A stretch of DNA of 64,000 nt from positions 1,374,465-1,438,464 of the forward strand of contig CAWFMD010000006.1 in the NCBI GenBank assembly GCA_963816975.1, in the 5' to 3' direction. The position numbers and the translations under genes are program-made. Position 1 is the first letter of the stretch. Each line of letters starts with the position of its first letter. The notes beneath the pieces were generated by a model that saw only the letters and a list, made by a program, of their open reading frames with translations, was not told the DNA's origin and ran no database searches. This DNA comes from an uncultured Solirubrobacterales bacterium (lineage in GTDB: Bacteria; Actinomycetota; Thermoleophilia; Solirubrobacterales; JBBDJG01). Shown piece after piece: positions 29,466-43,322 of this stretch.

Positions 29466-30305
29466 TCAGTAGTCGTAGAAGCCGGCGCCGGACTTGCGGC
29501 CCAGGCGCCCTTCGCCGACCAGTTCCTTGACGCGGCCGGGAGGCCGGTGCGCGGCGTCCCCCGTGTCCGCGTAGAGCGCCTCGCCGATTGCCGCGGCGAC
29601 GTCGATGCCGATCAGGTCCAGCAGCTGGAGCGGGCCCATCGGGTGCGAGGCGCCGAGCCTCATGCAGGCGTCGACCTGCTGCGGCTCCATTCCCGTGCGC
29701 TCGAGCAGCCGGACCGCGTCGAACAGGTACGGGAAGAGCAGCCGGTTGACCACGAATCCCGGCTCGTCGGGCACCTCGACGGGGGTCTTGCCGATGGCCT
29801 CGCAAAAGGCCGTCGCGCGAGTCCGCACCGGCCCGTCCGCGGTCGCGGGGAAGCACAGCTCGACGAGCTTCATCCTGGCCACCGGGTTGAAGACGTGCAG
29901 GCCGAAGAATCGCGCCGGGTCACCGCTCACGTCCGCAAGCCGGCCGATGCCGAGCGAGGACGTGGTCGTGGCGAGCAGCGCGTGGGGCGCCAGCAGGGCG
30001 CGCAGGGAGGGGAGCAGCTCGTGCTTCAGCGCCGGCTGCTCCGCGACCGCCTCGACCACGAGTGTCGCGTCGGCAAGCACATCCCGGTCAGTCGTGACGG
30101 TCAGCTGCTGTCCGTGCCTGTGGCTCAGGGCCTTGCGCGCGCGCCGTGCCGAGTCATCGCTGCGGGCCCACATCACGACGTCGCCGCCGTGTCCCATCAC
30201 GCAGGCCGCAAGCCCGCATGCGATCGTGCCCGAGCCCACGATGGCCACGCGCTCGGGAAAGGTCTGGAAGGCCGTGCCGCGGTCGCCCGCCCCTGGTTGA
30301 CTCAT
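29466..30305 (-). CDS. 3-hydroxyacyl-CoA (3-hydroxybutyryl-CoA) dehydrogenase
   Basis: VAIVGSGTIACGLA Rossmann motif, central HVFNPV block, C-terminal GRKSGAGFYDY. Confidence 0.9.
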   Translation of the reverse strand: MSQPGAGDRGTAFQTFPERVAIVGSGTIACGLAACVMGHGGDVVMWARSDDSARRARKALSHRHGQQLTVTTDRDVLADATLVVEAVAEQPALKHELLPSLRALLAPHALLATTTSSLGIGRLADVSGDPARFFGLHVFNPVARMKLVELCFPATADGPVRTRATAFCEAIGKTPVEVPDEPGFVVNRLLFPYLFDAVRLLERTGMEPQQVDACMRLGASHPMGPLQLLDLIGIDVAAAIGEALYADTGDAAHRPPGRVKELVGEGRLGRKSGAGFYDY

Positions 30306-30312
30306 GAGTCAA
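30297..30312. promoter_or_regulatory. Perfect 16-bp palindrome TTGACTCATGAGTCAA (candidate operator) in the divergent beta-oxidation promoter region
   Basis: Self-complementary 16-mer centred on the ATG of the 3-hydroxyacyl-CoA dehydrogenase gene, 103 nt upstream of the thiolase ATG. Related site at 39805..39824. Confidence 0.45.
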
Positions 30313-30414
30313 TGAAGTAACATAGCCGCTGCACGAGGCACCAAAACTTTCGCCGCGCCGAAGCTCCCCGAATGGACGTCGGAAGCGGCCGGCACGACAA
30401 TCGGAGGCGCACCG

Positions 30415-31599
30415 ATGCAGAACGGGACTGGCCGGGAAGTCGTGATCGTCGAGGCTGCACGCACACCGATCGGGCGCGGCCACCCCGAGAAGGGCTACTA
30501 CAAGAACACCCACCCGAACGAACTGCTCGGCAGGGCGTTCTCGGCCGTGATCGAGCGCTCCGGGATCCCGGCCCAGGACGTCGAGGACGTGATCACCGGC
30601 TGCGTCCAACAGCTCGGGGAGCAGGGCTTCAACGTCGGCCGCAACGCCTGGCTGCAGGCGGGCCTCCCGATCACCACCCCGGCAACCACCGTCGACCGCC
30701 AGTGCGGCTCGGCGCAGCAGGCGGTGAACTTCGGCGCCGCCCTGGTTGCGTCCGGCGTGCACGACGTCGTGATCGGCGGCGGCGTCGAGCACATGGGCCA
30801 CATCCCGATGGGCGTCACCTTCAACTTCGTGGACCAGGTCGGCTCCCCGTGGCCGGACGAGCTGATGGCCCGCTACAACCTCGTCCCGCAGGGCATCTCG
30901 GCCGAGATGATCGCCGACCAGTGGGAGATCCCGCGCTCCGAGCTGGACGAGCTGGGGCTGCGTTCCCACCGCAACGCCGCGCGCGCCACGGAGGAGGGCC
31001 GCTTCGAGCGCGAGACGATCCCGATGACCGTGAAGATGAACGGTTCGGAGGAGACCGTCGTGGCCGATCAGGGCATCCGCCCCGACACCAGCCTCGAGCA
31101 GCTGTCCCAGCTGAAGCCGGCGTTCAAGCAGGACGGCAAGGTGACGGCCGGCAACGCGAGCCAGATCTCCGACGGCGCCGCCGCGGTGCTGCTGATGACG
31201 CGCGAGAAGGCTGACGCATACGGCCTCAAGCCGCGCGCCCGCATCCTCGACCAGACCACGGTCGGGGTGGACCCGGTGATCATGCTGACCGGCCCGATCC
31301 CGGCAACCCACAAGCTGCTGGAGCGCAACAAGATGAAGATCGACGACATCGACCTGATCGAGATCAACGAGGCGTTCGCGTCCGTCGTCGCGGCCTGGCG
31401 GCGCGAGCTCGAGCCCGACATGGACCGCGTCAACGTGAACGGTGGCGCGATCGCGCTCGGGCACCCGCTCGGGTCGACCGGCGCACGCCTGATCACGACG
31501 CTGCTGCACGAGCTCGAGCGCACGGACAAGGAGATCGGCCTCGTGACGATGTGCTGTGGTGGAGGCCTCGGCACGGGCACGCTGATCCAGCGCGTCTGA
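30415..31599 (+). CDS. Acetyl-CoA C-acyltransferase (thiolase)
   Basis: VVIVEAARTPIGRG start, active-site region VDRQCGSAQQA, C-terminal NVNGGAIALGHPLGSTGARL and MCCGGGLG. Confidence 0.95.
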   Translation: MQNGTGREVVIVEAARTPIGRGHPEKGYYKNTHPNELLGRAFSAVIERSGIPAQDVEDVITGCVQQLGEQGFNVGRNAWLQAGLPITTPATTVDRQCGSAQQAVNFGAALVASGVHDVVIGGGVEHMGHIPMGVTFNFVDQVGSPWPDELMARYNLVPQGISAEMIADQWEIPRSELDELGLRSHRNAARATEEGRFERETIPMTVKMNGSEETVVADQGIRPDTSLEQLSQLKPAFKQDGKVTAGNASQISDGAAAVLLMTREKADAYGLKPRARILDQTTVGVDPVIMLTGPIPATHKLLERNKMKIDDIDLIEINEAFASVVAAWRRELEPDMDRVNVNGGAIALGHPLGSTGARLITTLLHELERTDKEIGLVTMCCGGGLGTGTLIQRV

Positions 31600-31606
31600 G
31601 GCGCCG

Positions 31607-32779
31607 GTGGACCTGACCCTGAGTCCCAGCGAGGAGGCCTTCCGCGACGAGGTGCGCTCGTGGCTGGCCGAGCATCACCCGGGCGCGGCCCCCGAGGACG
31701 AGAACGAGGCGTTCGAGTTCGCGCGCCGCTGGCAGCGCAAGCTGCACGACGGCGGCTGGGCCGGCGTCTCGTGGCCGGAGCAGTACGGCGGCCGTGGCGC
31801 CACGCTGATCGAGCAGGCGATCTTCTACGAGGAGATGGTGCGCGCCAAGGCGCCCCGAATCGCGAACGTCCTCGGTCTCGTGATGGGCGGCCCCGTCGTG
31901 ATCACGCACGGCACGGACGCGCAGAAGCAGCGCTACCTCGAGCCGATCCTGTCGGCCGAGGAGATCTGGTGCCAGGGATTCTCCGAGCCGGAGGCAGGCT
32001 CCGACCTGGCGTCCTTGAAGACCCGCGCCGTGAAGCGCGACGGCGGCTGGGTCGTGTCGGGGCAGAAGGTCTGGACCACCCTTGCCCACGAGGCGAAGTG
32101 GTGCATGCTCGTGGCGCGCACCGACCCGGACGCGCCCAAGCACCAGGGCCTCACCTACTTCCTGATGGACATGGAGCAGGACGGCGTCGAGGTCAAGCCG
32201 CTCGTGCAGATCACGGGCGAGGCCGAGTTCAACGAGATCTTCATGGACGAGGCCTACATCCCCGACGACAACGTCGTGGGTGGGGTGGGCAACGGCTGGA
32301 GCGTCGCGATCACGACCTTGATGAACGAGCGCGCCGGCCTCGCGTTCGCCGCCCAGGCGGCACTCGAGCTGGCGATGAGCAGGGCGATCGCGCTTGTGAA
32401 CACGACGTCGCGCAACGGCGGCCCGATTTCCGAGGACCCGGTGGTGCGCGACCGCCTCTCCCAGCTGTTCATCGAGTCCGAGATCTTTCGCGTGACGAAC
32501 CTCCGGGGGCTCACGAAGATCATGAAGAACGGCGTGCCGGGTCCCGAGGGTTCGCTCGGGAAGTGGCACTGGGCCGAGATCAATCAGCACCTGATGGAGC
32601 TGGTGATGGAGATCGAGGGCCCGTACTCGCAGTTCGCCGACGGCTCGCACCACTCGCTCGGCGGAGACTGGCAGTACCAGTACCTGCGCACCCGCGCAAA
32701 CTCCATCGAGGGCGGCACCACGGACATCCTCAAGAACATCGTCGCCGAGCGGGTCCTGGGCCTGCCGAAGCTCAGATAG
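31607..32779 (+). CDS. Acyl-CoA dehydrogenase family protein
   Basis: WCQGFSEPEAGSDLASL, GQKVWTT and C-terminal IEGGTTDILKNIVAERVLGLP. GTG start. Confidence 0.9.
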   Translation: MDLTLSPSEEAFRDEVRSWLAEHHPGAAPEDENEAFEFARRWQRKLHDGGWAGVSWPEQYGGRGATLIEQAIFYEEMVRAKAPRIANVLGLVMGGPVVITHGTDAQKQRYLEPILSAEEIWCQGFSEPEAGSDLASLKTRAVKRDGGWVVSGQKVWTTLAHEAKWCMLVARTDPDAPKHQGLTYFLMDMEQDGVEVKPLVQITGEAEFNEIFMDEAYIPDDNVVGGVGNGWSVAITTLMNERAGLAFAAQAALELAMSRAIALVNTTSRNGGPISEDPVVRDRLSQLFIESEIFRVTNLRGLTKIMKNGVPGPEGSLGKWHWAEINQHLMELVMEIEGPYSQFADGSHHSLGGDWQYQYLRTRANSIEGGTTDILKNIVAERVLGLPKLR

Positions 32780-32824
32780 GGCCGGCAATGAGCACGCTCA
32801 TTACCGGGTCTGGAGAGGGATGAC

Positions 32825-33970
32825 GTGAACTTCGACCTAACCGACGAGCAACAGATGCTGCAGGCCGCGGCGCGGGAGTTCCTCGCGGCGCGGTTGAAGT
32901 CCGAGCGGATCAGGGAGCTCGCCGAGTCCGACGACGCATTCAGCGAGGACCTGTGGCGCGAGATCAGCGATCTCAACTGGCCGGGTCTGATGATCTCGGA
33001 GCAGTACGGAGGACAGGGGCTGGGCACGGTGGAGCTGGCGGTGCTGATGGAGCAGCTCGGCTACGCACTCACGCCGGGGCCGATCCTCTCCAGCATCCTG
33101 GCCGGGATCGCGCTCGAGACCGCGGCCACCGAGGAGCAGAAGGAGCGCTACCTCGCGCCCCTCGCCACCGGCGAGCAGCGGGCGTCGCTGGCGCTCTGGG
33201 ACGCGGGGGCGGGCTGGTCGCCGAACGACATCACGCTGGAGCCCGAGGAAGCGAGCGGCGGCTACGTGCTGCGCGGCGAGAAGCTGTTCGTGATGGACGC
33301 CGCCCGGGCCGACTTCCTGATCGTCGGCGCGACGGGCGACCGACGGTTCATCGTCGCGCGCGACGCCGACGGCGTTTCGATCGCTCCCACCGAGACCATC
33401 GATGCGACCCGCAAGCAGTACGCCGTCAAGCTCGATGGTGTGCAGGTCTCAGCCGACGCGGCGTTCGGCGGTGACGGTGCGCTGGCCCCCGCGCGGGTGC
33501 GCGCTTTCACGGCGGTCGCGGCCGAGCTCACGGGAGTCGCCCAGCGCGCCATGGAGATGGCGGTCGAATACGCCAAGGAGCGCAAGCAGTTCGGCCGGCC
33601 GATCGGCTCCTACCAGGCCGTCTCGCACCGCTGCGCGCAGATGCTGCTGGAGACGGAGGCGGCGCGGTCGGCGGCCTACTACGCGGCCTGGGCGGCGGAC
33701 AACGAGCCCGAGACCGCCCCGCTCGCGGCGTCGATGGCGAAGGCGTATGCATCCGACGCCGGCGTCCGCGTCACGAACGCCTCGCTGCAGGTCCATGGCG
33801 GCATCGGGTTCACGTGGGAGCACGACCTGCACTTCTTCCTGAAGCGGGCCGCTGCCGACGCTGTGATGTTCGGCGACGCGCGCTGGCATCGCGAGCAGGT
33901 CGCGCGGATGGTGATCGACTCCCCCGGCGTCGGGGCCTCCGAGCCGACCGTGGTCGCGGCCGCGACCTAG
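32825..33970 (+). CDS. Acyl-CoA dehydrogenase family protein
   Basis: FDLTDEQQMLQAAAREF, YAKERKQFGRPIGSYQAV and LQVHGGIGFTWEHDLH. Confidence 0.9.
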   Translation: MNFDLTDEQQMLQAAAREFLAARLKSERIRELAESDDAFSEDLWREISDLNWPGLMISEQYGGQGLGTVELAVLMEQLGYALTPGPILSSILAGIALETAATEEQKERYLAPLATGEQRASLALWDAGAGWSPNDITLEPEEASGGYVLRGEKLFVMDAARADFLIVGATGDRRFIVARDADGVSIAPTETIDATRKQYAVKLDGVQVSADAAFGGDGALAPARVRAFTAVAAELTGVAQRAMEMAVEYAKERKQFGRPIGSYQAVSHRCAQMLLETEAARSAAYYAAWAADNEPETAPLAASMAKAYASDAGVRVTNASLQVHGGIGFTWEHDLHFFLKRAAADAVMFGDARWHREQVARMVIDSPGVGASEPTVVAAAT

Positions 33971-35478
33971 CGCGCGCGCTTGGCGGGCTTGGCCCGCGCG
34001 AGGTAGCGCTGGCCGGCGCGCACGGTGACGGTCTTGTGTTTGGCGATGTCGCGCACCTTGACCACGCCGCTGGTGACGCGCGTGAGGGTGCCGGCGCACC
34101 TGTCCTCGACCAGCCAGCGGGTGCCGCGCACGGTGGCCGCGCTGCGGCGTCCACGGGTCTTGTAGCGGCCCGTCGCGTTGCCCCACAGGCGGCGGCGGGG
34201 GCGGCGCTTGGCGCTCGCCTGCACGCCCCGGCCCGCGCGGCAGCGGGGCATCTGGCCGGCGAGCCTCAGCTCCACCAGTCCGTTCGCATTTTTGCGTTGC
34301 TGCCCGATGAACCGGCCGCCGTGGAAGACCCCCGACTGGATGCCGCCGGCAGGCGTGGCCGACGCGAGGCTGATGCGGCCCCGGCGCACATCGATCAGGG
34401 AGCCGACCGGCACCTGTGTGGCATCGGTCAGGGGCTTGAGCCGGCCCAGCCGCTTTCCGTGGCGGCGGGCCACCTTCACGACTCCCGAGACGCGCGCGAC
34501 GTTGAGCTCGCGGTAGATGTCGGGCGCGGCAAGCTGCGGTTGCGGCAACCCGGGCAGACCGGGAGAGGTGGTCTGGGGCGCCCGAGTGACGCCGACGGGG
34601 TTGTAGAACAGGCCGCCCGCGGACACCCCGGCCTGGGCGCCGGTGACGGTGTCGACACTGATCAGTCCACCGGATCCGCCGAACGCATCGGGGTCTGCCA
34701 CGAGCGCCGTGCCGGCCTCGGCGAACACACCCGCCGGGTCCTTGAGCGGGCTGCCCGCCGCCACCGGGGCGATGCTGCCGTTGGCGAGGCTGAGCGCCCA
34801 CAGGGACTCTTTCGTGGTGACGAGTACCCGGCCGTCCGGACTCACCGCGATGCCGCGCAGGGCGGAGCCGAACTGCGCTCCGGAGGCGACCTGCGACTGC
34901 ACCCCGGTCGTGGGGTCGATCCTGATCAACCCACCCTTCACGCTGTCCACCTTGGAATCGGCCACATAGATGACGCCGCCGGGCCCGACCGCGACGCCCA
35001 CGGGATCCACCAGCAGGCCATCGGCGCCGATCACCGTCTGGGCGCCGGTGGCCGGCTCGACGCGCACGACCTTGCCGCCCTCGTCGGAAACCAGCAGCGC
35101 GCCGTCGGCGGCGATTGCAACGCCCGTCGGCCTGTAGAAGTACCCCAGCTGAGCCACGACGGTCTGGGTCCCGGTCGTCGCGTCGATCGCCACAATCGCT
35201 CCCTTGCCGAGCGCGTGGCTGTCACTCACGAACAGCGTGCCGTCCGCGCGCGCGACGATCCCGGACGGCTTCTTCAGGTGCCCCTCCTTGGAAAGCAGTG
35301 TCTGGCCGCCCCCCGAGGTGTCGACCCGCACGACGCTGGCGCGCCCTTCGTCGACCACCAGCGCATCCGTGGAGGCGGCGAGCGCGGCGCCGGGCGTGGC
35401 CAGGGCGGCGGCGACCGAGAGCGCGATCGCGACCAGGGTGGCCCGCGGCGAGGGGCCGGGGTGGTGCAGGCTCAGCAC
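33967..35478 (-). CDS. Secreted NHL/beta-propeller repeat protein with C-terminal FecR-like domain
   Basis: GTG 35478, signal peptide (ATLVAIALSVAAALATPGAALA). Repeated units of the type P.G[IV]A....G.L[FL]V[SA]D (PSGIVARADGTLFVSD, PTGVAIAADGALLVSD, PVGVAVGPGGVIYVAD). Basic beta-rich C-terminus (VSGVVKV..VPVGSLIDV..). The upstream part of the track ORF overlaps the next gene and is rejected. Confidence 0.7.
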   Translation of the reverse strand: MLSLHHPGPSPRATLVAIALSVAAALATPGAALAASTDALVVDEGRASVVRVDTSGGGQTLLSKEGHLKKPSGIVARADGTLFVSDSHALGKGAIVAIDATTGTQTVVAQLGYFYRPTGVAIAADGALLVSDEGGKVVRVEPATGAQTVIGADGLLVDPVGVAVGPGGVIYVADSKVDSVKGGLIRIDPTTGVQSQVASGAQFGSALRGIAVSPDGRVLVTTKESLWALSLANGSIAPVAAGSPLKDPAGVFAEAGTALVADPDAFGGSGGLISVDTVTGAQAGVSAGGLFYNPVGVTRAPQTTSPGLPGLPQPQLAAPDIYRELNVARVSGVVKVARRHGKRLGRLKPLTDATQVPVGSLIDVRRGRISLASATPAGGIQSGVFHGGRFIGQQRKNANGLVELRLAGQMPRCRAGRGVQASAKRRPRRRLWGNATGRYKTRGRRSAATVRGTRWLVEDRCAGTLTRVTSGVVKVRDIAKHKTVTVRAGQRYLARAKPAKRAR

Positions 35479-35531
35479 CCTGGTGCTATCGGCCGGCGCG
35501 CATGCGGACTTGAGGCGCGGACGGGCCACGC

Positions 35532-37349
35532 CTAGCGACGCGGTGCCGTGGCGAGGGCCTTTGCCGGGCGCCGGCGAAGATCCCGCAGGGAGGTTCGCTC
35601 GCGCTCCATCCGCGGCGCCAGCGCGAGGAATCTCTCCACGAGCCGGGGGTCGAACGCCGTGCCGCTGCGCGCACGGATCTCGGCGAGCGCGGCGTCGAGG
35701 CTCCATGCGGGCTTGTAGGCGCGCTCCGACATGAGCGCGTCGAATACGTCGCAGATCGAGCAGATCCTTCCCGCCATCGGGATCTCCTCTCCGCGCAGTC
35801 CCGCCGGGTAGCCGCTGCCGTCCCACCGCTCGTGGTGCGTGCGGGCGATCACCTCGGCAACCTGGATCAGACGCGATCCTGAGCCCGCGAGAATCTCGCT
35901 GCCGATCTTCGTGTGGCTCCTCATGATCTCGCGCTCCTCGGCCGTGAACTCGCCCGGCTTGCGCAGGATCGCGTCGGGGATCCCGATCTTGCCGAGGTCG
36001 TGCAGGGCGCTCGCGTCCCGGAGGAGCTCGGCGTCGTCGACGCTCCAGCCGGCGTCGACTGCGAGTTGATAACAGAGCCGGCCGATTCGCTCGATGTGCT
36101 CACCGGTTTCGCGGTCGCGCGACTCCGCCGCCTGTCCGAGCCGGTACACGACCTCCATCTGGGTCTCGCGCAGCTCCGTGGTGCGCTTGCGCACCTCTCG
36201 CTCGAGCTCGTCCTTGCGATGCACGACGCGGCGGCGCTCGCTGCTCTCCGCAAGGTATGCGGCGGTGACCGCGGTCACGGTTCCGGTCATCAGTGCCGCG
36301 ATCGGATAGGTGAAGACCACGACCCACCCGGCGTTGAAGAGCTCCTGCGCGACGATCGCGTAGCCGATCGCCACCGAGGGAACGAGCACGACGAGCAGCC
36401 GCGCCCGCATGTAGGCGATTCCGAGCGTGGGTGCGAGCCCAAGTGCCAGGATCATGAGCAGGTCGATCCAGTCCGGCACGCTGCGCAGCGGGACACCGTG
36501 CATGGCGGTCCAGATCGCGTTCGCCTGGATCTCCGGTCCCGACATCGGATTCTCGTCTGACATCGGTGTCGGGTGGATGTCCTGCAGGGTCGACGCCGAC
36601 GCGCCCACCACGACCACCTTGTCGCGTAGCGCCGCGAAGGGGACGTCGCCTTCGACCAGGTCGGCGAAGGAGAAGGTCGGCACCGTTGCCGGGGGGCCGC
36701 GGTAGTCGATCCATGCGCCGCCGTGGTCGAACAGATGCCGCGGCGGCGGGTGTCCCGTCGCCTGGCCGGCGGTGGCCACGCCGAAGGTCTCGAGCCCGGC
36801 CTCCTCGTAGGCGATCTTGCGGACCACGCCCCCGCGGTCGACGGGGACGTTGCTCGCGGCGGCCCGGGCCCGCGCCCGCGCGACGTTGGCGTCGCCACCG
36901 AGCACGTTCGTGCGGCCCCGCTGGTCGACCTCCGTGGTGGCGAGCACCACATTGCCCGCCCGCCTGATCGCACGGTAGAGGGCAAGATCTTCGGCCGGCT
37001 TCGTGGGCTCCGTGAACTGGACGTCGTACGCGATCTGCCTGACGCCGGCCGCACGGAGCCGATCGATCGCGGTGGCGTGCAGCGAGCGTGGGAAGGGCCA
37101 CTGGATCTCCAGCCTGGAGAAGGTCACCTCGTCGATCGCGATCACGACTACGTCGTCGGGGGGATCCGCCTCGCGCAGTGTGAAGCGCATGTCGAGGCTG
37201 TCACCCTCCAGGGGTCCCCAGGCATCCGTCACGTACGCCAGGCAACTGAGGGCGACGGCGATCGTGGCCGCGAGCACCGTACCAACCCGACGGCCGGCCG
37301 CGCGGGTCGCGCGAAGGTCGCGCGCCCGACCCTTCGATCTCCTGCGCAT
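35532..37349 (-). CDS. CHASE2 sensor domain / HD-GYP domain signalling protein (putative c-di-GMP phosphodiesterase)
   Basis: Periplasmic CHASE2 pattern (VVVIAIDEVTF..WPFPRSLHA..YDVQF), three C-proximal TM helices, then HD-GYP (HIERIG, ALHDLGKIGIPD, HHERWDGSGYP). ATG 37349 chosen; GTG 37367 is possible. Confidence 0.85.
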   Translation of the reverse strand: MRRRSKGRARDLRATRAAGRRVGTVLAATIAVALSCLAYVTDAWGPLEGDSLDMRFTLREADPPDDVVVIAIDEVTFSRLEIQWPFPRSLHATAIDRLRAAGVRQIAYDVQFTEPTKPAEDLALYRAIRRAGNVVLATTEVDQRGRTNVLGGDANVARARARAAASNVPVDRGGVVRKIAYEEAGLETFGVATAGQATGHPPPRHLFDHGGAWIDYRGPPATVPTFSFADLVEGDVPFAALRDKVVVVGASASTLQDIHPTPMSDENPMSGPEIQANAIWTAMHGVPLRSVPDWIDLLMILALGLAPTLGIAYMRARLLVVLVPSVAIGYAIVAQELFNAGWVVVFTYPIAALMTGTVTAVTAAYLAESSERRRVVHRKDELEREVRKRTTELRETQMEVVYRLGQAAESRDRETGEHIERIGRLCYQLAVDAGWSVDDAELLRDASALHDLGKIGIPDAILRKPGEFTAEEREIMRSHTKIGSEILAGSGSRLIQVAEVIARTHHERWDGSGYPAGLRGEEIPMAGRICSICDVFDALMSERAYKPAWSLDAALAEIRARSGTAFDPRLVERFLALAPRMERERTSLRDLRRRPAKALATAPRR

Positions 37350-37474: not shown

Positions 37475-38242
37475 TCAGTCCGAGCCGGGGAGCCGACCTC
37501 CCACGAACTGGGTGAGGCCGGCCAGGCGCTGGCGGACGTCAATGAACCCGAGCGCGCGCAACGCGTCAACGAGTTCCTGCTGCTCGAACATGCGGATCCC
37601 CGCGGGCGCGGCGACTGCCCGCTCGAGCGCGCGCAACGCTCCCGTGCGCCCGTGGCTCGACGTGAACAGCGCGATGCGCCCGCCCGGGGCCAGCACGCGG
37701 CGCATCTCGTCGAGGGCCAGGTAGGGGTCGGGGAACAGGTTCAAGGCGGCGAAGCAGCACGCGGCGTCGAAGGACGCCGCTCGAAACGGCAGCGCGGCCG
37801 CGTCCGCGAACGCGAAGCACAGGTTGTCGATACCGGCGGCATGCGTCTCGCGCACCGCGCGTTCCAGCATCGGGCGGGAGGCGTCGACTCCCACCACGAG
37901 ACCGCCACCGCCTACGGCGTGGGCGAAGTCCCGCGAGAAGTTCCCGGGGCCGCAGGCGACGTCGAGCACGCCGTCACCCGGGCCGAGGCCCATCAGGAGC
38001 CTGGCGATCCGCTTCTCGTCCGCCATGCCCGGGCCGCCGATGCCCTTTGCCATCCGGCCCAGCGCGGGGCGCCACCAGCGCTCGTAGACGCGGGTCACCG
38101 GACCCGCCTGCATCAGGCTGCCGACCAGACCCGGCTGCTCGATGTCCCGGCCCAGTACCTCCAGATAGCCGTCGTGCAGGACCGCGTCGCGGTGATCGGG
38201 GCGCAGCAGCGGCCGCACCCGCTCGCAGGGGGAGCCGCTCAC
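37475..38242 (-). CDS. Class I SAM-dependent methyltransferase
   Basis: SAM motif I VLDVACGPGNFS and post-I VVGVDAS. GTG 38242 forms a GTGA overlap with the upstream stop. Confidence 0.85.
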   Translation of the reverse strand: MSGSPCERVRPLLRPDHRDAVLHDGYLEVLGRDIEQPGLVGSLMQAGPVTRVYERWWRPALGRMAKGIGGPGMADEKRIARLLMGLGPGDGVLDVACGPGNFSRDFAHAVGGGGLVVGVDASRPMLERAVRETHAAGIDNLCFAFADAAALPFRAASFDAACCFAALNLFPDPYLALDEMRRVLAPGGRIALFTSSHGRTGALRALERAVAAPAGIRMFEQQELVDALRALGFIDVRQRLAGLTQFVGGRLPGSD

Positions 38243-38523
38243 CCGGCGTCGCGACCGAGCCGGAGGCTCGGCAGCGGCTGTTCGTGCTCCTGCACGTGAC
38301 CGTCGCCCTGACCTTCGCGCGCGATGCGCTCGAGCCGCGCGATCGCGCGCTCCCCCTCAATGCGGGCGGGGTCTGCGGGCGGCAGGCTCGCGATCAGGCG
38401 CGCCACGCGATCGCGGATCTGGAGCGCAAAATGGGGAGTCGCGGGCCCCAGCAGCTCGCGCACGTCGTCGACCGTGACGCGGTGCTGCGGGGCGAGTCGG
38501 TCGGGTCGCTCTGCGCCGCTCAT
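38239..38523 (-). CDS. Small conserved-looking hypothetical protein (94 aa)
   Basis: ATG 38523 (MSGAERPDRL..VTVDDVRELLGPATPHFALQIRDRV). Only the last 94 codons of track ORF 38239..39831 look coding; the rest overlaps the next gene. Confidence 0.5.
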   Translation of the reverse strand: MSGAERPDRLAPQHRVTVDDVRELLGPATPHFALQIRDRVARLIASLPPADPARIEGERAIARLERIAREGQGDGHVQEHEQPLPSLRLGRDAG

Positions 38524-38549
38524 GCCCGCAAGAGTACGGCCCGCCGCTC

Positions 38550-39737
38550 CTACAGTCCCTCGTCGCGCACGCGCACGATCTCGGCCAGCTCGTCGATCCT
38601 GGCCTGCACGCCCAGGCTGATCGCGGACTCGTCTCCCAGGATCCAGGCGTGGTTGTAGACGCCCCGCACCGGGTCGAACCGGTAGCCGGGCTGGATGTCG
38701 AGCAGGTAGTCCTCCAGCGGCCCTGGGAGCTTGTCCTTGTCGTCGACGAGCAGCAACGGCCCATAGGTGCCGCTCCCTCCGAGCGCCGCAGCCGCGGCCG
38801 CGTCGCCCGTGCGGCCGGAGTTGGCGAACACGAGGCCGTGTCCGGGGTCGCGGACTCCCCAGCCGAAGGTCGCGTCGGAGTAGCGTGCGAACGCGATCGC
38901 GTTGGTCACGGGTGTGCTGCCCTGGATCCGCTTGACCGGGCCGAGCCGCCGCAGCGAGCGCTCCACTTCTGACGAGATCACGTGCTCGGGCCCGAGCACG
39001 TAGATGCGCGGCTGCTCGTGGCGGTTGATCGCCTGCCGCGTCGCGCGCGGCAGGGCGTTGCGTTCCGTGAAGAGCACCGAGTCGCCGGACTTGGCCGCCC
39101 ACGAAGCCGCGGGCATCGCGAACTGCGGCTGGTCCACCGAGACGATCACGACGTTGGCGGACGGGCGCTTCGCGACATCGGTGCGAAACGCGTCGATCGT
39201 GGCTGCGAGCCTGACCGGGTCGCCGCCCGCAATGCGGCGCGAGCGCAGCTCTCCCGGTGCCCGAGCGTCCCCGACCTCGATGGCCTGCGCGCCGCCCGCG
39301 TCGGGCGCCCCGGTCGGTTTGAGCGTGTCCAGGGCGGTCGCGGTGGCGCGCGGCAGGTCTCCGCCGTCGGTCAGCAGGATCGGGGCGCGCAGCGGCCGGC
39401 CCATCAGGGCGGCGGCCGCGATCGCCGCGCGCCAGTCGTCCCGGTCGACGAGCGTCACGGCCCGCGGGCGCGTGCCGCGGGTCTGCCCGGGATAGGTCGC
39501 GGCGGCCGTCCCGGCCGCGTCGGCGACCGCGTCCCGACCACCGACCCGCGTCGTGTTCTTGGTCGCGAGCGCGGGGAAGCCGAGCACGGCCTGGTTCGCG
39601 GTGTCCTCCTTGAGCTGGACCTCGACCGGATTGCCGTCGTCGCCGCACGCGCCGATCGCCAGCGCAAGCGCGACCATCACGATCACCGTCCCGGTCAGAT
39701 GCGCGCCTGTGCGGGGCTCCGCCATCGAGCGGCGCAC
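38550..39737 (-). CDS. Lipoprotein with three putative cell-wall-binding (CWB2-like) repeats
   Basis: Lipobox LAIGAC. Three repeats with R[VI].G.D....A pattern plus 'ILLTD..LP', 'VLFTERNALP' and 'LLLVDDKDKLP' segments, typical of cell wall binding repeat 2. Confidence 0.65.
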   Translation of the reverse strand: MRRSMAEPRTGAHLTGTVIVMVALALAIGACGDDGNPVEVQLKEDTANQAVLGFPALATKNTTRVGGRDAVADAAGTAAATYPGQTRGTRPRAVTLVDRDDWRAAIAAAALMGRPLRAPILLTDGGDLPRATATALDTLKPTGAPDAGGAQAIEVGDARAPGELRSRRIAGGDPVRLAATIDAFRTDVAKRPSANVVIVSVDQPQFAMPAASWAAKSGDSVLFTERNALPRATRQAINRHEQPRIYVLGPEHVISSEVERSLRRLGPVKRIQGSTPVTNAIAFARYSDATFGWGVRDPGHGLVFANSGRTGDAAAAAALGGSGTYGPLLLVDDKDKLPGPLEDYLLDIQPGYRFDPVRGVYNHAWILGDESAISLGVQARIDELAEIVRVRDEGL

Positions 39738-39804
39738 GATAGCGGCTGGACCTCCCGGGCCCGAAAGCTGGTTGACGGGGCCCGAGGGGGGTACACTTTG
39801 ACTT

Positions 39805-39824
39805 GGTTGACTCGTCAGTCAACC
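39805..39824. promoter_or_regulatory. Inverted repeat GGTTGACT-CGTC-AGTCAACC (candidate operator), preceded by an extra TTGACT half-site
   Basis: 8-bp arms with a 4-nt spacer, 60 nt upstream of the acyl-CoA dehydrogenase ATG. Same TTGACT/AGTCAA arms as 30297..30312. Confidence 0.45.
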
Positions 39825-39883
39825 GCCGCACGGCATGGCAGCCCGAGCGTCATGCGGCGGCCGAAGACTTGGAGCCGGAGCGG

Positions 39884-41215
39884 ATGGACTTTCGACTCAG
39901 CGACGACAGCCTCGAGTGGCAGCAGTACTGCCGGCAGTTCGCACGCGAGGTGGTGCGGCCTGCCGCTGCGCAGCACGATCGGGACGAGAGCGTGCCTTAC
40001 GACGTGATGCAGAAGGCCTACGAGTGGAAGCTCGCCGGCCTCGAGTGGATCCAGACGCTGCAGACGGACACGGAAGGGCTGAAGGGCGTCATCTACGCCG
40101 AGGAGGTCCACTGGGGCTGTGCGGGCATCGCACTCGCCATCTCCGCCTCCACGCTGTGCGCGGCGGGGATCGCCTCCTCCGGCACACCCGAGCAGATCGG
40201 CCGCTGGATCCCCGAGGTGATCGGCAACAAGGACGACCCCAAGATCGGGGCCTACGCCGTCACCGAGCCCGCTGCCGGCTCGGACGTGAAGTCGCTGCGC
40301 ACGACCGCCAAGCGCGACGGCGACGACTGGATCCTGAACGGCACCAAGACCTTCATCTCGAACGGCGGCATCGCGGATGTGACGGTCGTGGTCGCGACCG
40401 TCGACCCGGACCTCGGGCACCGGGGCCAGGCGTCGTTCATCGTGACCGGCGACAACCCCGGCCTGAAGCTCGGCCACAAGGAGTCCAAGCTCGGCATCCG
40501 TGCCTCACAGACCGCAGAGATCGTGCTGGAGGACTGCCGCGTCCCCGGCGACCACCTGCTGGGCGGCGAGGAGAAGTTGCAGCGCAAGCTCGAGCGGGCC
40601 CGCTCGGGCAAGAGCTCTGGTGCCTCCGGCGCGCTGGCGACGTTCGAGATCACGCGCCCGACCGTCGGCGCCTCTGCGCTGGGCATCGCGCAGGCCGCCT
40701 ACGAGTGGACTCTCGAGTACCTGCACGGCCGCACCGAGGACGGGCGTCCCCTGCTCCAGGAGCAGCGCATCCAGCAGGTGCTGGCCGACGTTGCGACCGA
40801 GATCGAGGCGGCGCGACTGCTGGTGTGGCGCGCGGCCTGGATGGGCCGCCATGGTGTGCCGATGACCGGCGGCCAGGGCTCCATGTCCAAGCTCAAGGGC
40901 GGCGACGTGGCGATGTGGGCCACCACGGAGTTGATGGACCTGGTCGGGCCCGCCGCGCAGTCGATGGACTATCCGCTCGAGAAGTGGTTCCGCGACGCCA
41001 AGATCTACCAGATCTTCGAGGGCACGGCGCAGATCCAGCGGCTGGTCATCGCCCGCATGCAGACGACCGAGTACACCGAGCGGCTGCAGTTCGCGCAGGA
41101 GGTGGCGGCCGCCGCCCAGGGCCAGGGGTCCGGCAACGGTGTCGTCTCGCAGGCGCCGGGCAACGCTCCGTCGGAGCAGCCCGCCGGCGCCGAGGCGCAG
41201 CGTGTCCCTGCCTAG
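39884..41215 (+). CDS. Acyl-CoA dehydrogenase
   Basis: AYAVTEPAAGSDV, GTKTFISNGG and IYQIFEGTAQIQRLVIAR. GGAG lies before ATG 39884. Low-complexity C-terminal tail. Confidence 0.9.
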   Translation: MDFRLSDDSLEWQQYCRQFAREVVRPAAAQHDRDESVPYDVMQKAYEWKLAGLEWIQTLQTDTEGLKGVIYAEEVHWGCAGIALAISASTLCAAGIASSGTPEQIGRWIPEVIGNKDDPKIGAYAVTEPAAGSDVKSLRTTAKRDGDDWILNGTKTFISNGGIADVTVVVATVDPDLGHRGQASFIVTGDNPGLKLGHKESKLGIRASQTAEIVLEDCRVPGDHLLGGEEKLQRKLERARSGKSSGASGALATFEITRPTVGASALGIAQAAYEWTLEYLHGRTEDGRPLLQEQRIQQVLADVATEIEAARLLVWRAAWMGRHGVPMTGGQGSMSKLKGGDVAMWATTELMDLVGPAAQSMDYPLEKWFRDAKIYQIFEGTAQIQRLVIARMQTTEYTERLQFAQEVAAAAQGQGSGNGVVSQAPGNAPSEQPAGAEAQRVPA

Positions 41216-41252
41216 CGCGCAAGAGATGTAAGCAACATCTAGCCTGAGCGCG

Positions 41253-42164
41253 ATGGCGCACGCGCACTCCCACGGGCTCGACGCGCGCCGGGCCGGCAAC
41301 CGCTCGCGGATGGCGATCGCGCTCGCGATCAACGTCGTGCTGCTGGTGGGCACCGTGGTTGGCGGGATCCTGACGGACTCGCTGGCGCTGTTGGCCGACG
41401 CCGGGCACCTGCTGTCGGACGTCGGGGCGATCGTGATCGGCCTGGCCGCCGCCCGCCTGGCGGCGCGCGCCCCGACCCCCGCGCGCACTTTCGGGCTGCA
41501 GCGCAGCGAGGTGCTGGGCGCGCTTGCCAACGGCGTGCTGCTGGTCGTGATCGCGGTGCTGATCGTGGTCGAGGCGGTCGGGCGGTTCGGGTCCGCGCCC
41601 GACGTGTCGGGCGGCGGGGTGCTGGCGGTCGGCCTGGCCGGCCTGGCCGGCAACATCGCGGCCACCTGGGTGCTCGCCGCGGGGGATCGCGCCGACCTCA
41701 ACCTCGAGGGCGTGCTGCGGCACTCCGCGGCGGACGCGCTCAGCTCGATCGGCGTCGTGGTGGCGGCGATCCTGATCCTGGCCGCGGGCTGGGACGAGGC
41801 GGACCCGCTCGCCAGCCTCCTGATCGCGGGGCTGATCCTCGTGGGCTCCTGGCGGCTGTTGAAGGAACCGGTCGACGTGCTGCTCGAGGCGGCGCCGCAG
41901 GGGACGGACGTGTCGGCGATCGGCACCGCGATGGCGGCCGAGCGTGACGTGGTCGAGGTCCACGACCTGCACGTCTGGACCGTCACGTCGGGGTTCCCGG
42001 CGCTCAGCGCGCACGTCGTGGTCTGTCCCGGCTGTGATCGCGATCGCGTGCTGCGGCGTGTGGAGGCGCTCCTGCGCGAGCGCTTCGGCATCACGCACGC
42101 GACCCTGCAGATGGTCGAGCACACTGCGGGTGACGGCCTGATCCAGGTCGAGCGCCGGGACTGA
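41253..42164 (+). CDS. Cation diffusion facilitator (CzcD/ZitB-like) metal efflux transporter
   Basis: His-rich N-terminus MAHAHSHG, TM2 motif SLALLADAGHLLSDV, C-terminal cytoplasmic domain (HDLHVWT). Confidence 0.9.
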   Translation: MAHAHSHGLDARRAGNRSRMAIALAINVVLLVGTVVGGILTDSLALLADAGHLLSDVGAIVIGLAAARLAARAPTPARTFGLQRSEVLGALANGVLLVVIAVLIVVEAVGRFGSAPDVSGGGVLAVGLAGLAGNIAATWVLAAGDRADLNLEGVLRHSAADALSSIGVVVAAILILAAGWDEADPLASLLIAGLILVGSWRLLKEPVDVLLEAAPQGTDVSAIGTAMAAERDVVEVHDLHVWTVTSGFPALSAHVVVCPGCDRDRVLRRVEALLRERFGITHATLQMVEHTAGDGLIQVERRD

Positions 42165-42184
42165 CCCGGCCGGCCCGGGCTGAG

Positions 42185-43000: not shown

Positions 43001-43129
43001 GCGCAGCAGTCTAGGACTGGGCGCAATCTCTCGTGCAGCGGCGCGGCGCAGGGCAGGAAAACGCGCCGGCCCGCGTCTTGCTGCTAAGGTTCCCGCGCTT
43101 TTGCAGGCAAATCAGTTCTGGGAGGTACG

Positions 43130-43312
43130 AACCTTCTCGAGCCGCTGAGTTCTCCCCGTGGCGGCCAGGACGGCCAAGCGGGGCGAAGCGGGGGAACCAA
43201 AGGCCAGCAGTGGGCGCCGGTTGGCGCCCTCGGGGCTAATCGCCGCGAGCCTCTTCGACGGTGTAGCGCCAGCTCTTCCGGCGCGAGTCCGACAGCTAAC
43301 CCCGTAAGCGTT
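43130..43312 (+). promoter_or_regulatory. Candidate ydaO/yuaA-type (cyclic-di-AMP) riboswitch in the leader of the M23 peptidase gene
   Basis: The 322-nt non-coding leader contains the blocks I associate with this motif: GCCGCUGAGUUC, GCGGGGGAACCAAA, CGGGGCUAAUCGCC and the 3' signature GAGUCCGACAGCUAACCCCGUAAGCG, which ends 12 nt before the ATG. The 5' boundary is approximate. Confidence 0.65.
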
Positions 43313-43322
43313 GGAAAGAGAC

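What the first reader, a model, noticed from the sequence alone, without database searches (positions are those of the whole stretch)
33967..37349. CHASE2-HD-GYP sensor in an operon with a secreted NHL-propeller/FecR-domain protein
The upstream gene combines an extracytoplasmic CHASE2 domain with a cytoplasmic HD-GYP domain (HHERWDGSGYP). That domain is the less common class of c-di-GMP phosphodiesterase. The next gene starts 53 nt downstream. It encodes a signal-peptide protein with NHL-type beta-propeller repeats and a basic FecR-like C-terminal domain. From memory, CHASE2 sensors are often paired with FecR-domain proteins in other phyla, but the ligand and the logic of the pair remain unknown. 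The NHL propeller fused to FecR could be the actual ligand-binding partner. No GGDEF or EAL gene is visible in the window.
Basis: partly seen in the sequence, partly recalled or inferred. Interest (0 to 1): 0.45.

Follow-up and report, generated by a model that had tools for sequence, protein, structure and literature searches.

The report
CHASE2 phosphodiesterase with secreted FecR-like partner
A membrane sensor enzyme predicted to break down the bacterial signal c-di-GMP lies next to a gene for a secreted propeller protein, and that protein's tail domain is found beside such sensors again and again, so it is probably the sensor's outside antenna; the pairing is real and conserved, but it is of a kind already noticed and still untested.

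Summary
Gene 1 (35532-37349, minus strand) is a CHASE2 receptor. It has one TM helix, an acidic ectodomain, three TM helices, a coiled coil and an intact HD-GYP domain. All PmGH-type metal ligands, the GYP motif and the c-di-GMP-type RxxK signature are present. Gene 2 starts 53 nt downstream (33967-35478). It encodes a signal peptide, a six-bladed NHL propeller, a linker and a 180-aa, pI ~12 all-beta C-terminal module. Pfam does not call FecR in this protein. However, homologous modules reach the Pfam FecR threshold, and the AF2 model's best PDB matches are FecR-type anti-sigma periplasmic domains. The invariant Gly-Thr also maps onto the FecR self-cleavage site. The pair is conserved in both gene orders in all 7 relatives' CHASE2-HD-GYP loci examined. 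Across Thermoleophilia the module carries many different N-terminal heads. It sits beside CHASE2 genes with either HD-GYP or cyclase outputs, and it co-diverges with the adjacent CHASE2 domain. The likeliest mechanism is that the FecR-like module docks on CHASE2 and the propeller supplies ligand recognition; this is inferred, not shown. CHASE2/FecR neighbourhoods and the CHASE2-HD-GYP architecture are already in the literature, uncharacterised. I class this as a new variant of a known kind, of moderate interest.

The parts
35532..37349 (-). Gene 1: CHASE2-HD-GYP transmembrane receptor, 605 aa (ATG 37349, TAG 35532-35534)
   Evidence: ORF list and translation. Pfam CHASE2 7.9e-46, HD_5 1.8e-31, HD 8.1e-18. 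An identical protein, P0121, is in the public collection on a 1.72-Mb contig.
37218..37289 (-). Predicted TM helix 1 (aa 21-44), preceded by a basic cytoplasmic N-terminus
   Evidence: Kyte-Doolittle window-19 hydropathy
36432..37244 (-). CHASE2 extracytoplasmic domain (aa 36-306); the ectodomain is acidic (pI 5.0, 34 D+E against 24 K+R)
   Evidence: Pfam PF05226 coordinates (converted); charge
36267..36479 (-). Hydrophobic block for TM helices 2-4 (aa ~291-361), followed by a charged helical linker
   Evidence: Hydropathy; reading the block as three helices is an inference from the usual CHASE2 topology
35640..36134 (-). HD-GYP catalytic domain (aa 406-570). It contains RETGEH (36096-36113), LHDLGK (35988-36005), SHT (within 35901-35921), HHERWDGSGYP (35805-35837) and CDVFDAL...RAYK (35733-35753 onward).
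   Evidence: Pfam HD_5. phmmer against PDB: PmGH 4mcw 8.5e-55, V-cGAP3 5z7c 3.9e-40, PA4781 4r8z 2.9e-37, with residue-by-residue alignments. Motif coordinates. RxxK signature.
35479..35531 (-). 53-nt intergenic spacer between gene 1 and gene 2; no terminator-like site
33967..35478 (-). Gene 2: secreted NHL-propeller / FecR-like-module protein, 503 aa (GTG 35478, TAG 33967-33969)
   Evidence: An identical protein, P0001, with the same start is in the public collection.
35377..35478 (-). Sec-type signal peptide (aa 1-34, ...GAALA|AS); no lipobox, no twin-arginine
   Evidence: Read from the sequence; AF2 helix 11-26 followed by a low-confidence segment. No dedicated predictor was available.
34582..35364 (-). 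Six-bladed NHL beta-propeller (aa 39-299), acidic (pI 4.9)
   Evidence: Pfam NHL 7.4e-13. AF2 gives 24 strands with pLDDT ~90-98. Foldseek matches six-bladed propellers, including the M. tuberculosis PknD sensor domain 1rwi (26-28% id). pI.
34510..34581 (-). Pro-rich disordered linker (aa 300-323)
   Evidence: AF2 pLDDT <50 for aa 303-314; sequence
33970..34509 (-). C-terminal FecR-like module (aa 324-503): all-beta, pI ~12, two invariant Cys (C413, C461)
   Evidence: Alignment A1. 5 of 34 homologous modules hit Pfam FecR, best 3.5e-7; P0053 scores 27.4 bits against a cut-off of 24. AF2 pLDDT 93. Foldseek top hits are 4m0h/4m0n and PupR 6ovk_R. The family has 6541 50%-identity clusters.
34120..34125 (-). 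Invariant Gly452-Thr453 (RGTRW), positionally equivalent to the FecR Gly181-Thr182 self-cleavage site
   Evidence: Invariant in A1 and A2. Both map to about position 73 of Pfam FecR. FecR cleavage site from PMC12036975. Cleavage here is untested.

Best explanation
This is a two-gene extracytoplasmic sensing unit of a Thermoleophilia-type actinobacterium. What is shown: gene 1 encodes a CHASE2 receptor whose cytoplasmic output is a catalytically complete HD-GYP phosphodiesterase with the c-di-GMP-type RxxK signature. Gene 2 encodes a secreted protein made of a six-bladed NHL propeller, a flexible linker and a very basic, remotely FecR-related beta module. The two genes travel together in evolution. 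What is inferred: after Sec export, the FecR-like module docks on the acidic CHASE2 ectodomain of gene 1. The propeller head binds the actual external cue, of unknown chemistry. Occupancy or release of the partner changes the conformation of CHASE2. That change is passed through the three-helix membrane block and the coiled coil to the HD-GYP domain, raising or lowering c-di-GMP hydrolysis. On this view CHASE2 reads a protein partner rather than a small molecule. The FecR-like module is then a common plug that lets different sensor heads couple to CHASE2 receptors with different outputs (HD-GYP here, class III cyclases elsewhere). The invariant Gly-Thr suggests the module may also self-cleave as FecR does, but this part is speculative.
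For: Domain identities are. The catalytic residues and RxxK signature are intact. The pair is conserved in both gene orders with unrelated flanks in 7 of 7 homologous loci. In 76 genome loci found through the module alone, 39 of 59 resolvable module genes or arrays have a CHASE2 gene directly next to them. All 42 CHASE2 ORFs in those 1.41 Mb lie within 3.3 kb of a module. The partner CHASE2 proteins carry either HD-GYP or Guanylate_cyc outputs, so the link is to the CHASE2 input domain. The module is constant while the N-terminal heads vary: NHL, FG-GAP, PKD, beta-helix, FN3, TSP3, DUF11, Calx-beta. Module and adjacent CHASE2 distances correlate (Mantel r 0.84, 0 of 2000 permutations), and modules cluster by partner type. 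Charge is complementary: module pI ~12, CHASE2 ectodomain pI 5.0. The same CHASE2 plus FecR-domain neighbourhood occurs in proteobacteria and Campylobacterota (PMC5192318, PMC9239204, PMC5498481). In authentic FecR/PupR this domain region mediates protein-protein signalling (PMC12036975; 6ovk).
Against: There is no direct evidence of a physical interaction, and no complex prediction could be run. About a third of module genes or arrays (20 of 59) have no CHASE2 neighbour, so the module must also work in trans or do something else. The Mantel correlation is also expected from simple co-inheritance of adjacent genes. The window protein itself does not hit Pfam FecR. The structural match is weak in absolute terms (TM ~0.33, E 6e-3), and hhalign against E. 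coli FecR was not significant. The extreme basicity and the adhesin-like variety of heads would equally suit a cell-envelope anchoring domain. No module-CHASE2 fusion protein was found among the candidates checked. In S. meliloti, deleting the FecR-domain neighbour did not abolish signal perception by the CHASE2 cyclases (PMC5498481 section heading).
Confidence: 0.5

Rival explanations
1. The basic C-terminal module is mainly a cell-envelope anchoring or sorting domain. It would hold many kinds of secreted surface proteins (adhesins, propellers, beta-helices) on anionic wall polymers or the membrane. The CHASE2 genes lie nearby because the second-messenger pathway regulates or monitors this surface-protein repertoire, not because the module is the receptor's ligand.
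For: The module is almost always at the extreme C-terminus of proteins of 176-1698 aa with very diverse, adhesin-like heads, in 6541 50%-identity clusters. Its pI is ~12. 20 of 59 module genes or arrays have no CHASE2 neighbour. Arrays hold up to 8 such genes. A CWB2 wall-binding protein is also encoded two genes upstream in the window.
Against: The module's homology and fold point to FecR-type signalling domains, not to known anchors. Immediate adjacency to CHASE2 is far above what the flanks show elsewhere. Modules co-diverge with, and cluster by, CHASE2 partner type. The FecR-domain/CHASE2 pairing recurs in Gram-negative phyla where the FecR proteins have other anchors such as LysM or lipoprotein signals.
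Confidence: 0.2
2. The partner acts as an inhibitor that is removed by proteolysis, in the manner of FecR. The module self-cleaves at Gly452-Thr453 and the fragments stay associated on CHASE2. A cue sensed by the propeller triggers dissociation or degradation, which switches the HD-GYP domain. This is a mechanistic variant of the best explanation.
For: Gly-Thr is invariant in 34 of 34 and 18 of 18 aligned homologues and is kept in 189 of 194 full-length modules. It maps to the same Pfam FecR profile position (~73) as the FecR Gly181-Thr182 self-cleavage site (PMC12036975).
Against: The mapping rests on profile coordinates, not on a residue-level alignment. The seed loci were found with a pattern that contained GT, which biases the count. 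Gly-Thr is conserved in the FecR Pfam family generally, and self-cleavage has only been shown for anti-sigma factors. No protease gene is conserved next to the pair.
Confidence: 0.15
3. The HD-GYP domain acts on another cyclic dinucleotide such as 3'3'-cGAMP, or acts mainly through protein-protein contacts rather than c-di-GMP hydrolysis. The unit would then not be a c-di-GMP module.
For: HD-GYP enzymes include the cGAMP-specific V-cGAP3 (5z7c, E 3.9e-40) and M. xanthus PmxA, whose operon also encodes a FecR-domain protein. No GGDEF motif was found in the window.
Against: The specificity signature is the canonical R-A-Y-K (RxxK), not RxxQ/N, and 116 of 120 family members have RxYK. The best structural relative is the c-di-GMP enzyme PmGH (8.5e-55). 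Relatives encode GGDEF proteins close to such pairs.
Confidence: 0.1

Closest known systems
CHASE2 sensor + FecR-domain protein gene neighbourhoods. Examples: the Burkholderia 'BiofilmReg' operon RR / LysM-FecR (COG4254) / CHASE2 histidine kinase; P. aeruginosa PA4035-PA4036 (locus tags partly from my own recollection; the paper's InterPro label names PA4035); the Campylobacterota CHASE2 adenylate cyclase cluster with a FecR-domain protein; S. meliloti cyaD1 with SMc02177.
   Same: An extracytoplasmic FecR-family domain protein is encoded next to a CHASE2 transmembrane receptor, and the pairing is conserved while the cytoplasmic output varies (PMC5192318, PMC9239204, PMC5498481). The mechanism is unknown in all of them.
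   Different: Here the output is HD-GYP rather than a kinase or cyclase. The partner's other domain is an NHL propeller rather than LysM or a lipoprotein anchor. The FecR-like domain is a divergent, pI ~12, two-cysteine C-terminal module that Pfam mostly misses. The host is a monoderm actinobacterial lineage (from general knowledge of Solirubrobacterales; not tested here). In that lineage the module is fused to dozens of head types and forms multi-gene arrays.
CHASE2-HD-GYP domain architecture (Galperin & Chou, bioRxiv 10.1101/2021.11.05.467447)
   Same: The architecture is the same: an extracytoplasmic CHASE2 domain followed by HD-GYP. In that survey, 18 of 19 Pfam CHASE2-HD combinations were HD-GYP. 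The window protein belongs to a populous family, with at least 120 clusters at 53% identity or more.
   Different: Nothing structural differs. That survey states that no such protein has been characterised experimentally and, in the passages that mention CHASE2, does not discuss the partner gene (only those passages were read).
FecR / PupR / FoxR cell-surface-signalling anti-sigma regulators
   Same: They share the central 'FecR' beta domain (Pfam PF04773) with its conserved Gly-Thr. The best structural matches of the module are periplasmic domains of this family: 4m0h/4m0n and 6ovk_R.
   Different: The window protein has no N-terminal anti-sigma domain (DUF4880), no TM helix and no FecR_C/STN domain, all of which E. 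coli FecR has. No ECF sigma factor or TonB-dependent transducer is among the 10 neighbouring genes scanned (29466-33970 and 37475-44567). It is a soluble secreted protein.
M. xanthus pmxA operon (MXAN_2063 FecR-domain lipoprotein, MXAN_2062 LysM-FN3, PmxA HD-GYP)
   Same: A membrane HD-GYP phosphodiesterase is co-transcribed with a secreted FecR-domain protein (PMC8844925).
   Different: The PmxA sensor is Cache-HAMP, not CHASE2 (PMC4877007). PmxA carries RxxQ and prefers 3'3'-cGAMP (bioRxiv 10.1101/600031), whereas the window enzyme has RxxK.
M. tuberculosis PknD extracellular sensor domain
   Same: It is a six-bladed NHL propeller used as an extracellular sensor head in an actinobacterium, with 26-28% identity in the Foldseek alignment. 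As far as I recall its ligand is also unknown.
   Different: In PknD the propeller is fused directly to the transmembrane kinase. Here it is on a separate secreted polypeptide joined to a FecR-like module.

Membership tests
CHASE2 domain receptors (PF05226) | Significant match to the CHASE2 profile above the curated cut-off | tested here: met
   157.1 bits against a cut-off of 26.3, E 7.9e-46, profile 6-254 of 257
CHASE2 domain receptors (PF05226) | Topology of TM helix, extracytoplasmic domain, hydrophobic membrane block, cytoplasmic output domain | tested here: met
   Hydrophobic segments at aa 21-44 and 291-361 flank the CHASE2 match, and HD-GYP follows. Reading the second block as three helices is inferred.
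HD-GYP c-di-GMP phosphodiesterases | HD_5/HD-GYP profile match and the HD and GYP motifs | tested here: met
   HD_5 at 109.6 bits against a cut-off of 27.2; LHDLGK and HHERWDGSGYP are present
HD-GYP c-di-GMP phosphodiesterases | Full set of metal-binding residues as in the active enzyme PmGH (E, H, HD, H, HH, D) | tested here: met
   The residue-by-residue phmmer alignment to 4mcw (E 8.5e-55) shows all of them conserved
HD-GYP c-di-GMP phosphodiesterases | Rxx(K/R) guanine-recognition signature (as opposed to RxxQ/N of cGAMP-specific enzymes) | tested here: met
   R-A-Y-K aligns with the PmGH R-P-Y-K, and 116 of 120 family members have RxYK
HD-GYP c-di-GMP phosphodiesterases | Measured hydrolysis of c-di-GMP to pGpG/GMP | not testable with these tools
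   Needs an enzyme assay
FecR domain (PF04773) | Profile match above the curated cut-off in the protein itself | tested here: not met
   No FecR hit for gene 2 at E<=0.1, nor for its isolated C-terminus at E<=10. There is only a weak NCBIfam Lsa33 match at aa 445-491, E 0.001.
FecR domain (PF04773) | Homology to proteins that do pass the profile (transitive membership) | tested here: met
   Modules 40-64% identical to the query's hit PF04773 in 5 of 34 cases, best 3.5e-7. P0053 scores 27.4 bits against a cut-off of 24 over profile 51-97. The full-length homologue P0010 gives a weak hit at the same place.
FecR domain (PF04773) | Fold similarity to solved FecR-family periplasmic domains | tested here: inconclusive
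   The top 4 of 350,542 chains are FecR-type anti-sigma domains (4m0h, 4m0n, 6ovk_R; probability 0.96-1.00). However, E is 6e-3 to 0.16 and TM is ~0.33.
FecR domain (PF04773) | Conserved Gly-Thr at the FecR self-cleavage position | tested here: met
   Gly-Thr is invariant. It maps to profile position ~73, as does E. coli FecR G181-T182. Cleavage itself is not testable here.
FecR-type anti-sigma factors (cell-surface signalling) | N-terminal cytoplasmic anti-sigma domain (DUF4880), a single TM helix, and a C-terminal FecR_C/STN domain | tested here: not met
   None of these is found in gene 2, while E. coli FecR shows all three Pfam domains in the same kind of scan. Gene 2 has a cleavable signal peptide instead.
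FecR-type anti-sigma factors (cell-surface signalling) | Adjacent ECF sigma factor and TonB-dependent transducer | tested here: not met
   The 10 neighbouring genes scanned (29466-33970 and 37475-44567) encode a methyltransferase, a CWB2 protein, beta-oxidation enzymes, a cation efflux protein, an SDR and an M23 peptidase
NHL-repeat six-bladed beta-propellers | NHL repeat profile matches and a closed six-blade propeller | tested here: met
   NHL at 48.3 bits against a cut-off of 20. The AF2 model has 24 strands over aa 39-299 at pLDDT ~90+. Foldseek matches six-bladed propellers including PknD 1rwi.
CHASE2 / FecR-domain partner pairs | Adjacency conserved across relatives independently of flanking genes | tested here: met
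   7 of 7 homologous loci; 39 of 59 resolvable module arrays; Mantel r 0.84
CHASE2 / FecR-domain partner pairs | Physical or functional interaction between the FecR domain and CHASE2 | not testable with these tools

The most novel reading that the evidence does not exclude
CHASE2 domains may not be small-molecule receptors at all. Their cognate 'ligand' would be the FecR-like domain of a secreted partner protein. In Thermoleophilia this has been elaborated into a plug-and-socket system. A single basic FecR-like module (more than 6500 protein clusters) is fused to dozens of interchangeable sensor heads. Up to eight such proteins are encoded in a row ahead of one, often double-CHASE2, cyclase or phosphodiesterase, possibly with FecR-style Gly-Thr self-cleavage as the switch. 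The window's pair would be the minimal one-head, one-socket version.
Probability: 0.3. Interest if true: 0.75.

Novelty: new variant of a known kind. Interest (0 to 1): 0.45.

Why it matters
No direct ligand for a CHASE2 domain turned up in the papers consulted here. The best-studied case, the S. meliloti CHASE2 cyclases, depends on an outer-membrane protein and a plant protein signal. A survey also states that no extracytoplasmic-sensor HD-GYP enzyme has been characterised. If the FecR-like module is the CHASE2-binding element, the question of what CHASE2 senses becomes directly testable with two soluble domains. This simple pair (one receptor, one partner, an enzymatic read-out) would be a convenient model, and an isolate with the same arrangement, Miltoncostaea marina, is available. 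It would also give a function to a large, mostly unannotated C-terminal domain family of soil actinobacteria. If the module is only an envelope anchor, the finding reduces to a correct but ordinary annotation.

Tried and rejected
- Direct Pfam scan of the isolated C-terminus at E<=10 gave nothing.
- A profile search of A1 against PDB sequences gave only chance-level hits.
- hhalign of A1 against E. coli FecR was not significant (probability 0.3) and aligned a different segment. A local pairwise alignment was also uninformative.
- The look-up of encoding contigs for the window's own protein found it not on record. The listing of cluster members gave no names or accessions, so the source organism is inferred only from its relatives.
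- The promoter and terminator scan was uninformative in this 70% GC DNA.
- I searched for Rosetta-stone fusions of the module to CHASE2 among proteins with a non-C-terminal module. None was found: they are module-FN3-module or head-module proteins.
- I considered that M. xanthus PmxA is the same architecture and rejected it, because its sensor is Cache-HAMP.
- I considered that gene 2 is a FecR-type anti-sigma factor and rejected it, because it lacks the anti-sigma domain, a TM helix and FecR_C.
- I considered cGAMP specificity and think it unlikely given the RxxK signature.
- I considered that the upstream methyltransferase and CWB2 genes belong to the unit. They are not conserved in the homologous loci.
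- My first GGDEF regular expression was too strict and found nothing; it was corrected.
- Neighbours of the 'orphan' module genes showed no common theme.

Full report
**Observation.** The window is ~70% GC throughout. On the minus strand, an ATG at 37349 opens a 605-codon gene ending at TAG 35532-35534. Fifty-three nucleotides later, a GTG at 35478 opens a 503-codon gene ending at TAG 33967-33969. Both proteins exist with exactly these boundaries in the public protein collection, on one 1.72-Mb contig (P0121 and P0001). Gene 2's stop overlaps by 4 nt the stop of a convergent acyl-CoA dehydrogenase gene, so gene 2 is the last gene of its transcription unit.

**Gene 1.** Pfam gives CHASE2 (E 7.9e-46), then HD_5 (1.8e-31) and HD (8.1e-18). 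Hydropathy places one TM helix at aa 21-44, before the CHASE2 match. A hydrophobic block at aa 291-361 follows it and is compatible with three helices. After that come a charged helical linker and the catalytic domain. Against PDB sequences the catalytic half is closest to the active c-di-GMP phosphodiesterase PmGH (4mcw, E 8.5e-55), followed by V-cGAP3 and PA4781. In the printed alignment every metal ligand (E..H, HD, H, HH, D) and GYP is conserved. The Rxx(K/R) guanine-recognition motif separates c-di-GMP enzymes from the RxxQ cGAMP-specific PmxA (bioRxiv 10.1101/600031). Here it is R-A-Y-K, and 116 of 120 family members have RxYK. So the domain is predicted to be catalytically competent and c-di-GMP-directed; the activity itself is untested. 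The family is populous, with at least 120 clusters at 53% identity or more, all CHASE2+HD_5. The architecture has been catalogued, with the remark that no such protein has been characterised (bioRxiv 10.1101/2021.11.05.467447).

**Gene 2.** The N-terminus reads as a Sec signal peptide: one Arg, a hydrophobic core and A-L-A|A, with no lipobox. Pfam finds NHL repeats (7.4e-13). An AF2 model built on 18 homologues (pLDDT 87) shows a 24-strand, six-bladed propeller at aa 39-299. It is followed by a disordered Pro-rich linker (aa ~300-323) and a separate all-beta domain at aa 324-495. Foldseek matches the propeller to six-bladed propellers in general and, among bacterial ones, to the PknD sensor domain. 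The propeller is acidic (pI 4.9). The C-terminal domain has 45 K+R against 8 D+E, pI ~12.

**Is the C-terminal domain FecR-like?** Directly, it is not detected. Pfam finds nothing in it, even at E<=10, a profile search against PDB sequences gives nothing, and hhalign against E. coli FecR is not significant. Indirectly, the answer is yes.
- A homology search showed that the last ~180 aa form a sharply conserved module (45-55% identity) at the extreme C-terminus of proteins with quite different N-terminal domains.
- Of 34 aligned modules (A1), 5 hit Pfam FecR on their own, best 3.5e-7.
- One of them, P0053, passes the curated threshold (27.4 against 24 bits) over profile positions 51-97.
- The AF2 model of the module (pLDDT 93, pTM 0.87) finds FecR-family periplasmic domains as its four best PDB matches out of 350,542 chains. 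These are two crystal forms of a Parabacteroides anti-sigma factor and the PupR cell-surface-signalling domain. The scores are weak, however (E 6e-3 to 0.16, TM ~0.33).
- The module has an invariant Gly-Thr and two invariant cysteines. By profile coordinates the Gly-Thr falls at about position 73 of Pfam FecR. That is the same position as Gly181-Thr182 of E. coli FecR, where FecR self-cleaves.

I therefore accept 'FecR-like' as a remote-homology statement. I reject membership of the anti-sigma factor family, because DUF4880, the TM helix and FecR_C are all absent and no ECF sigma or TonB-dependent transducer gene is nearby.

**Is the pairing conserved?**
- Starting from gene 2 orthologues, P0008 has NHL-module then CHASE2-HD_5 with a 10-nt gap, and P0007 has CHASE2-HD_5 then NHL-module. 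The flanking genes are unrelated.
- Starting from gene 1 homologues (P0122, P0126, P0207, P0210, P0212), each has a module-bearing gene immediately adjacent, confirmed with my module HMM. Together that is 7 of 7 loci, including the cultured Miltoncostaea marina.
- Starting from the module alone, a scan of one genome per species gave 408 confirmed stretches. The 76 loci kept are from Thermoleophilia (Solirubrobacterales, Gaiellales, Thermoleophilaceae) or MAGs labelled only 'Actinomycetes', apart from one Gemmatimonadales MAG.
- In those 76 loci (1.41 Mb) I found 214 modules grouped into 78 single genes or same-strand arrays. Of the 59 that are not cut by a locus end, 39 have a CHASE2 gene directly next to the last module: 25 co-directional and 14 convergent.
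- All 42 CHASE2 ORFs in this DNA lie within 3.3 kb of a module.
- The adjacent CHASE2 proteins carry either HD-GYP or class III cyclase domains. Several are ~1100-aa proteins with two CHASE2 domains.
- Distances among modules and among their adjacent CHASE2 domains correlate strongly (Mantel r 0.84, 41 pairs, 0 of 2000 permutations). Modules are more alike within a partner type (57-69% for the three main types) than between types (42-49%).
- A caveat on these counts: the seed pattern contained GT...C, and co-inheritance alone produces such correlations.

**Mechanism.** Across this lineage, and in the proteobacterial and campylobacterotal cases in the literature, the constant elements are the FecR-family domain and the CHASE2 domain. 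Both the partner's other domain and the receptor's output vary. The economical reading is that these two domains are the functional interface. The module would dock on the CHASE2 ectodomain, which is acidic here (pI 5.0) against the module's pI ~12. The head, here an NHL propeller, would provide ligand recognition, and the state of the complex would set HD-GYP activity. The domain identities, intact active site, conserved adjacency and co-divergence are shown. Docking, the direction of regulation and the nature of the cue are inferred. The Gly-Thr conservation allows a FecR-style self-cleavage and release variant, which is speculative.

The main rival is that the module is an envelope-anchoring domain for surface proteins and that the CHASE2 link is regulatory. 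The rival is favoured by four things: the extreme basicity, the adhesin-like heads, the size of the family (6541 clusters at 50% identity, 3742 of them at E<=1e-30), and the third of module genes that lack a CHASE2 neighbour. I found no module-CHASE2 fusion that would settle the matter.

**Comparison and novelty.** The CHASE2/FecR-domain neighbourhood is already described, without a mechanism, for Burkholderia/Pseudomonas (LysM-FecR with a CHASE2 kinase), for Campylobacterota (a CHASE2 cyclase cluster) and beside S. meliloti cyaD1. The CHASE2-HD-GYP architecture is catalogued. The M. xanthus pmxA operon couples a FecR-domain lipoprotein to an HD-GYP enzyme, but through a Cache sensor and with cGAMP preference.

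Three things are different here: the combination of an NHL head, a divergent basic two-cysteine FecR-like module and an HD-GYP output; the actinobacterial host; and, in relatives, the modular head-swapping and multi-gene arrays. I class it as a new variant of a known kind. For a specialist the window's pair is a sound, unsurprising annotation. Its value is as a minimal, tractable model for asking what CHASE2 senses.

Noticed in passing
L004 1506-18413; L059 477-13862; L069 12-13865; L023 3380-20222; L012 8265-20552; L014 3587-19565: Tandem same-strand arrays of 5-7 genes. Each gene encodes a different N-terminal domain plus the same FecR-like C-terminal module. The arrays end in a CHASE2 gene, often a ~1100-aa class III cyclase with two CHASE2 domains. 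Other arrays reach 8 genes but run off the fetched DNA (L029, L050).
   Followed up: partly
L049 910-4218: A module gene is followed 4 nt later by a 921-aa PAS-GGDEF-EAL protein whose first ~360 aa have no Pfam match and do not hit my CHASE2 HMM. This may be a different sensor type paired with the module.
   Followed up: partly
L003, L006, L025, L037, L045, L056, L060, L073 and 12 more loci: About a third of resolvable module genes or arrays (20 of 59) have no CHASE2 gene within ~2.6 kb downstream or ~4.5 kb upstream. Their neighbours are unrelated (APH kinase, methyltransferase, EamA, ThiG, CMD, RibD_C).
   Followed up: partly
protein library: The module profile finds 6541 cluster representatives (50% identity) at E<=1e-3 and 3742 at E<=1e-30, in proteins of 176-1698 aa. 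Most module-only proteins in the list carry no Pfam annotation, so this is a large, effectively undescribed domain subfamily.
   Followed up: partly
window 29466-33970 and 39803-41215: The sensor pair is embedded among fatty-acid beta-oxidation genes: a 3-hydroxyacyl-CoA dehydrogenase, a thiolase and three acyl-CoA dehydrogenases. The homologous pairs elsewhere have different neighbours, though L083 also has two acyl-CoA dehydrogenases nearby.
   Followed up: no
window 38550-39737 (-) and 43308-44567 (+): There is a secreted protein with CWB2 cell-wall-binding repeats two genes upstream of the pair, and a PcsB-like coiled-coil plus M23 peptidase further on. Both are envelope proteins and are not conserved next to the pair in relatives. 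M. marina does have a PG_binding plus M23 peptidase right after its CHASE2-HD-GYP gene (L080 7967-9169).
   Followed up: no
window 37475-38242 (-); L006 11113-12123: A SAM-dependent methyltransferase (Methyltransf_25/11) lies 125 nt upstream of gene 1. A methyltransferase of the same Pfam families follows an orphan module gene in L006. This is probably coincidence.
   Followed up: no
window 53055-57815 (+): A 1587-codon ORF with strong coding signal (GC3 0.93) that I did not examine.
   Followed up: no
L080 2576-4891 (Miltoncostaea marina CP064655): A 771-aa HDOD-HD-GGDEF-HD_5 protein is encoded divergently, just upstream of the module/CHASE2-HD-GYP pair. So a c-di-GMP cyclase-type protein sits beside the homologous pair in a cultured relative.
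   Followed up: no
L007, L031, L005, L001, L054: Two or three module/CHASE2-HD-GYP pairs stand in tandem in the same locus, indicating duplication of the pair as a unit.
   Followed up: partly
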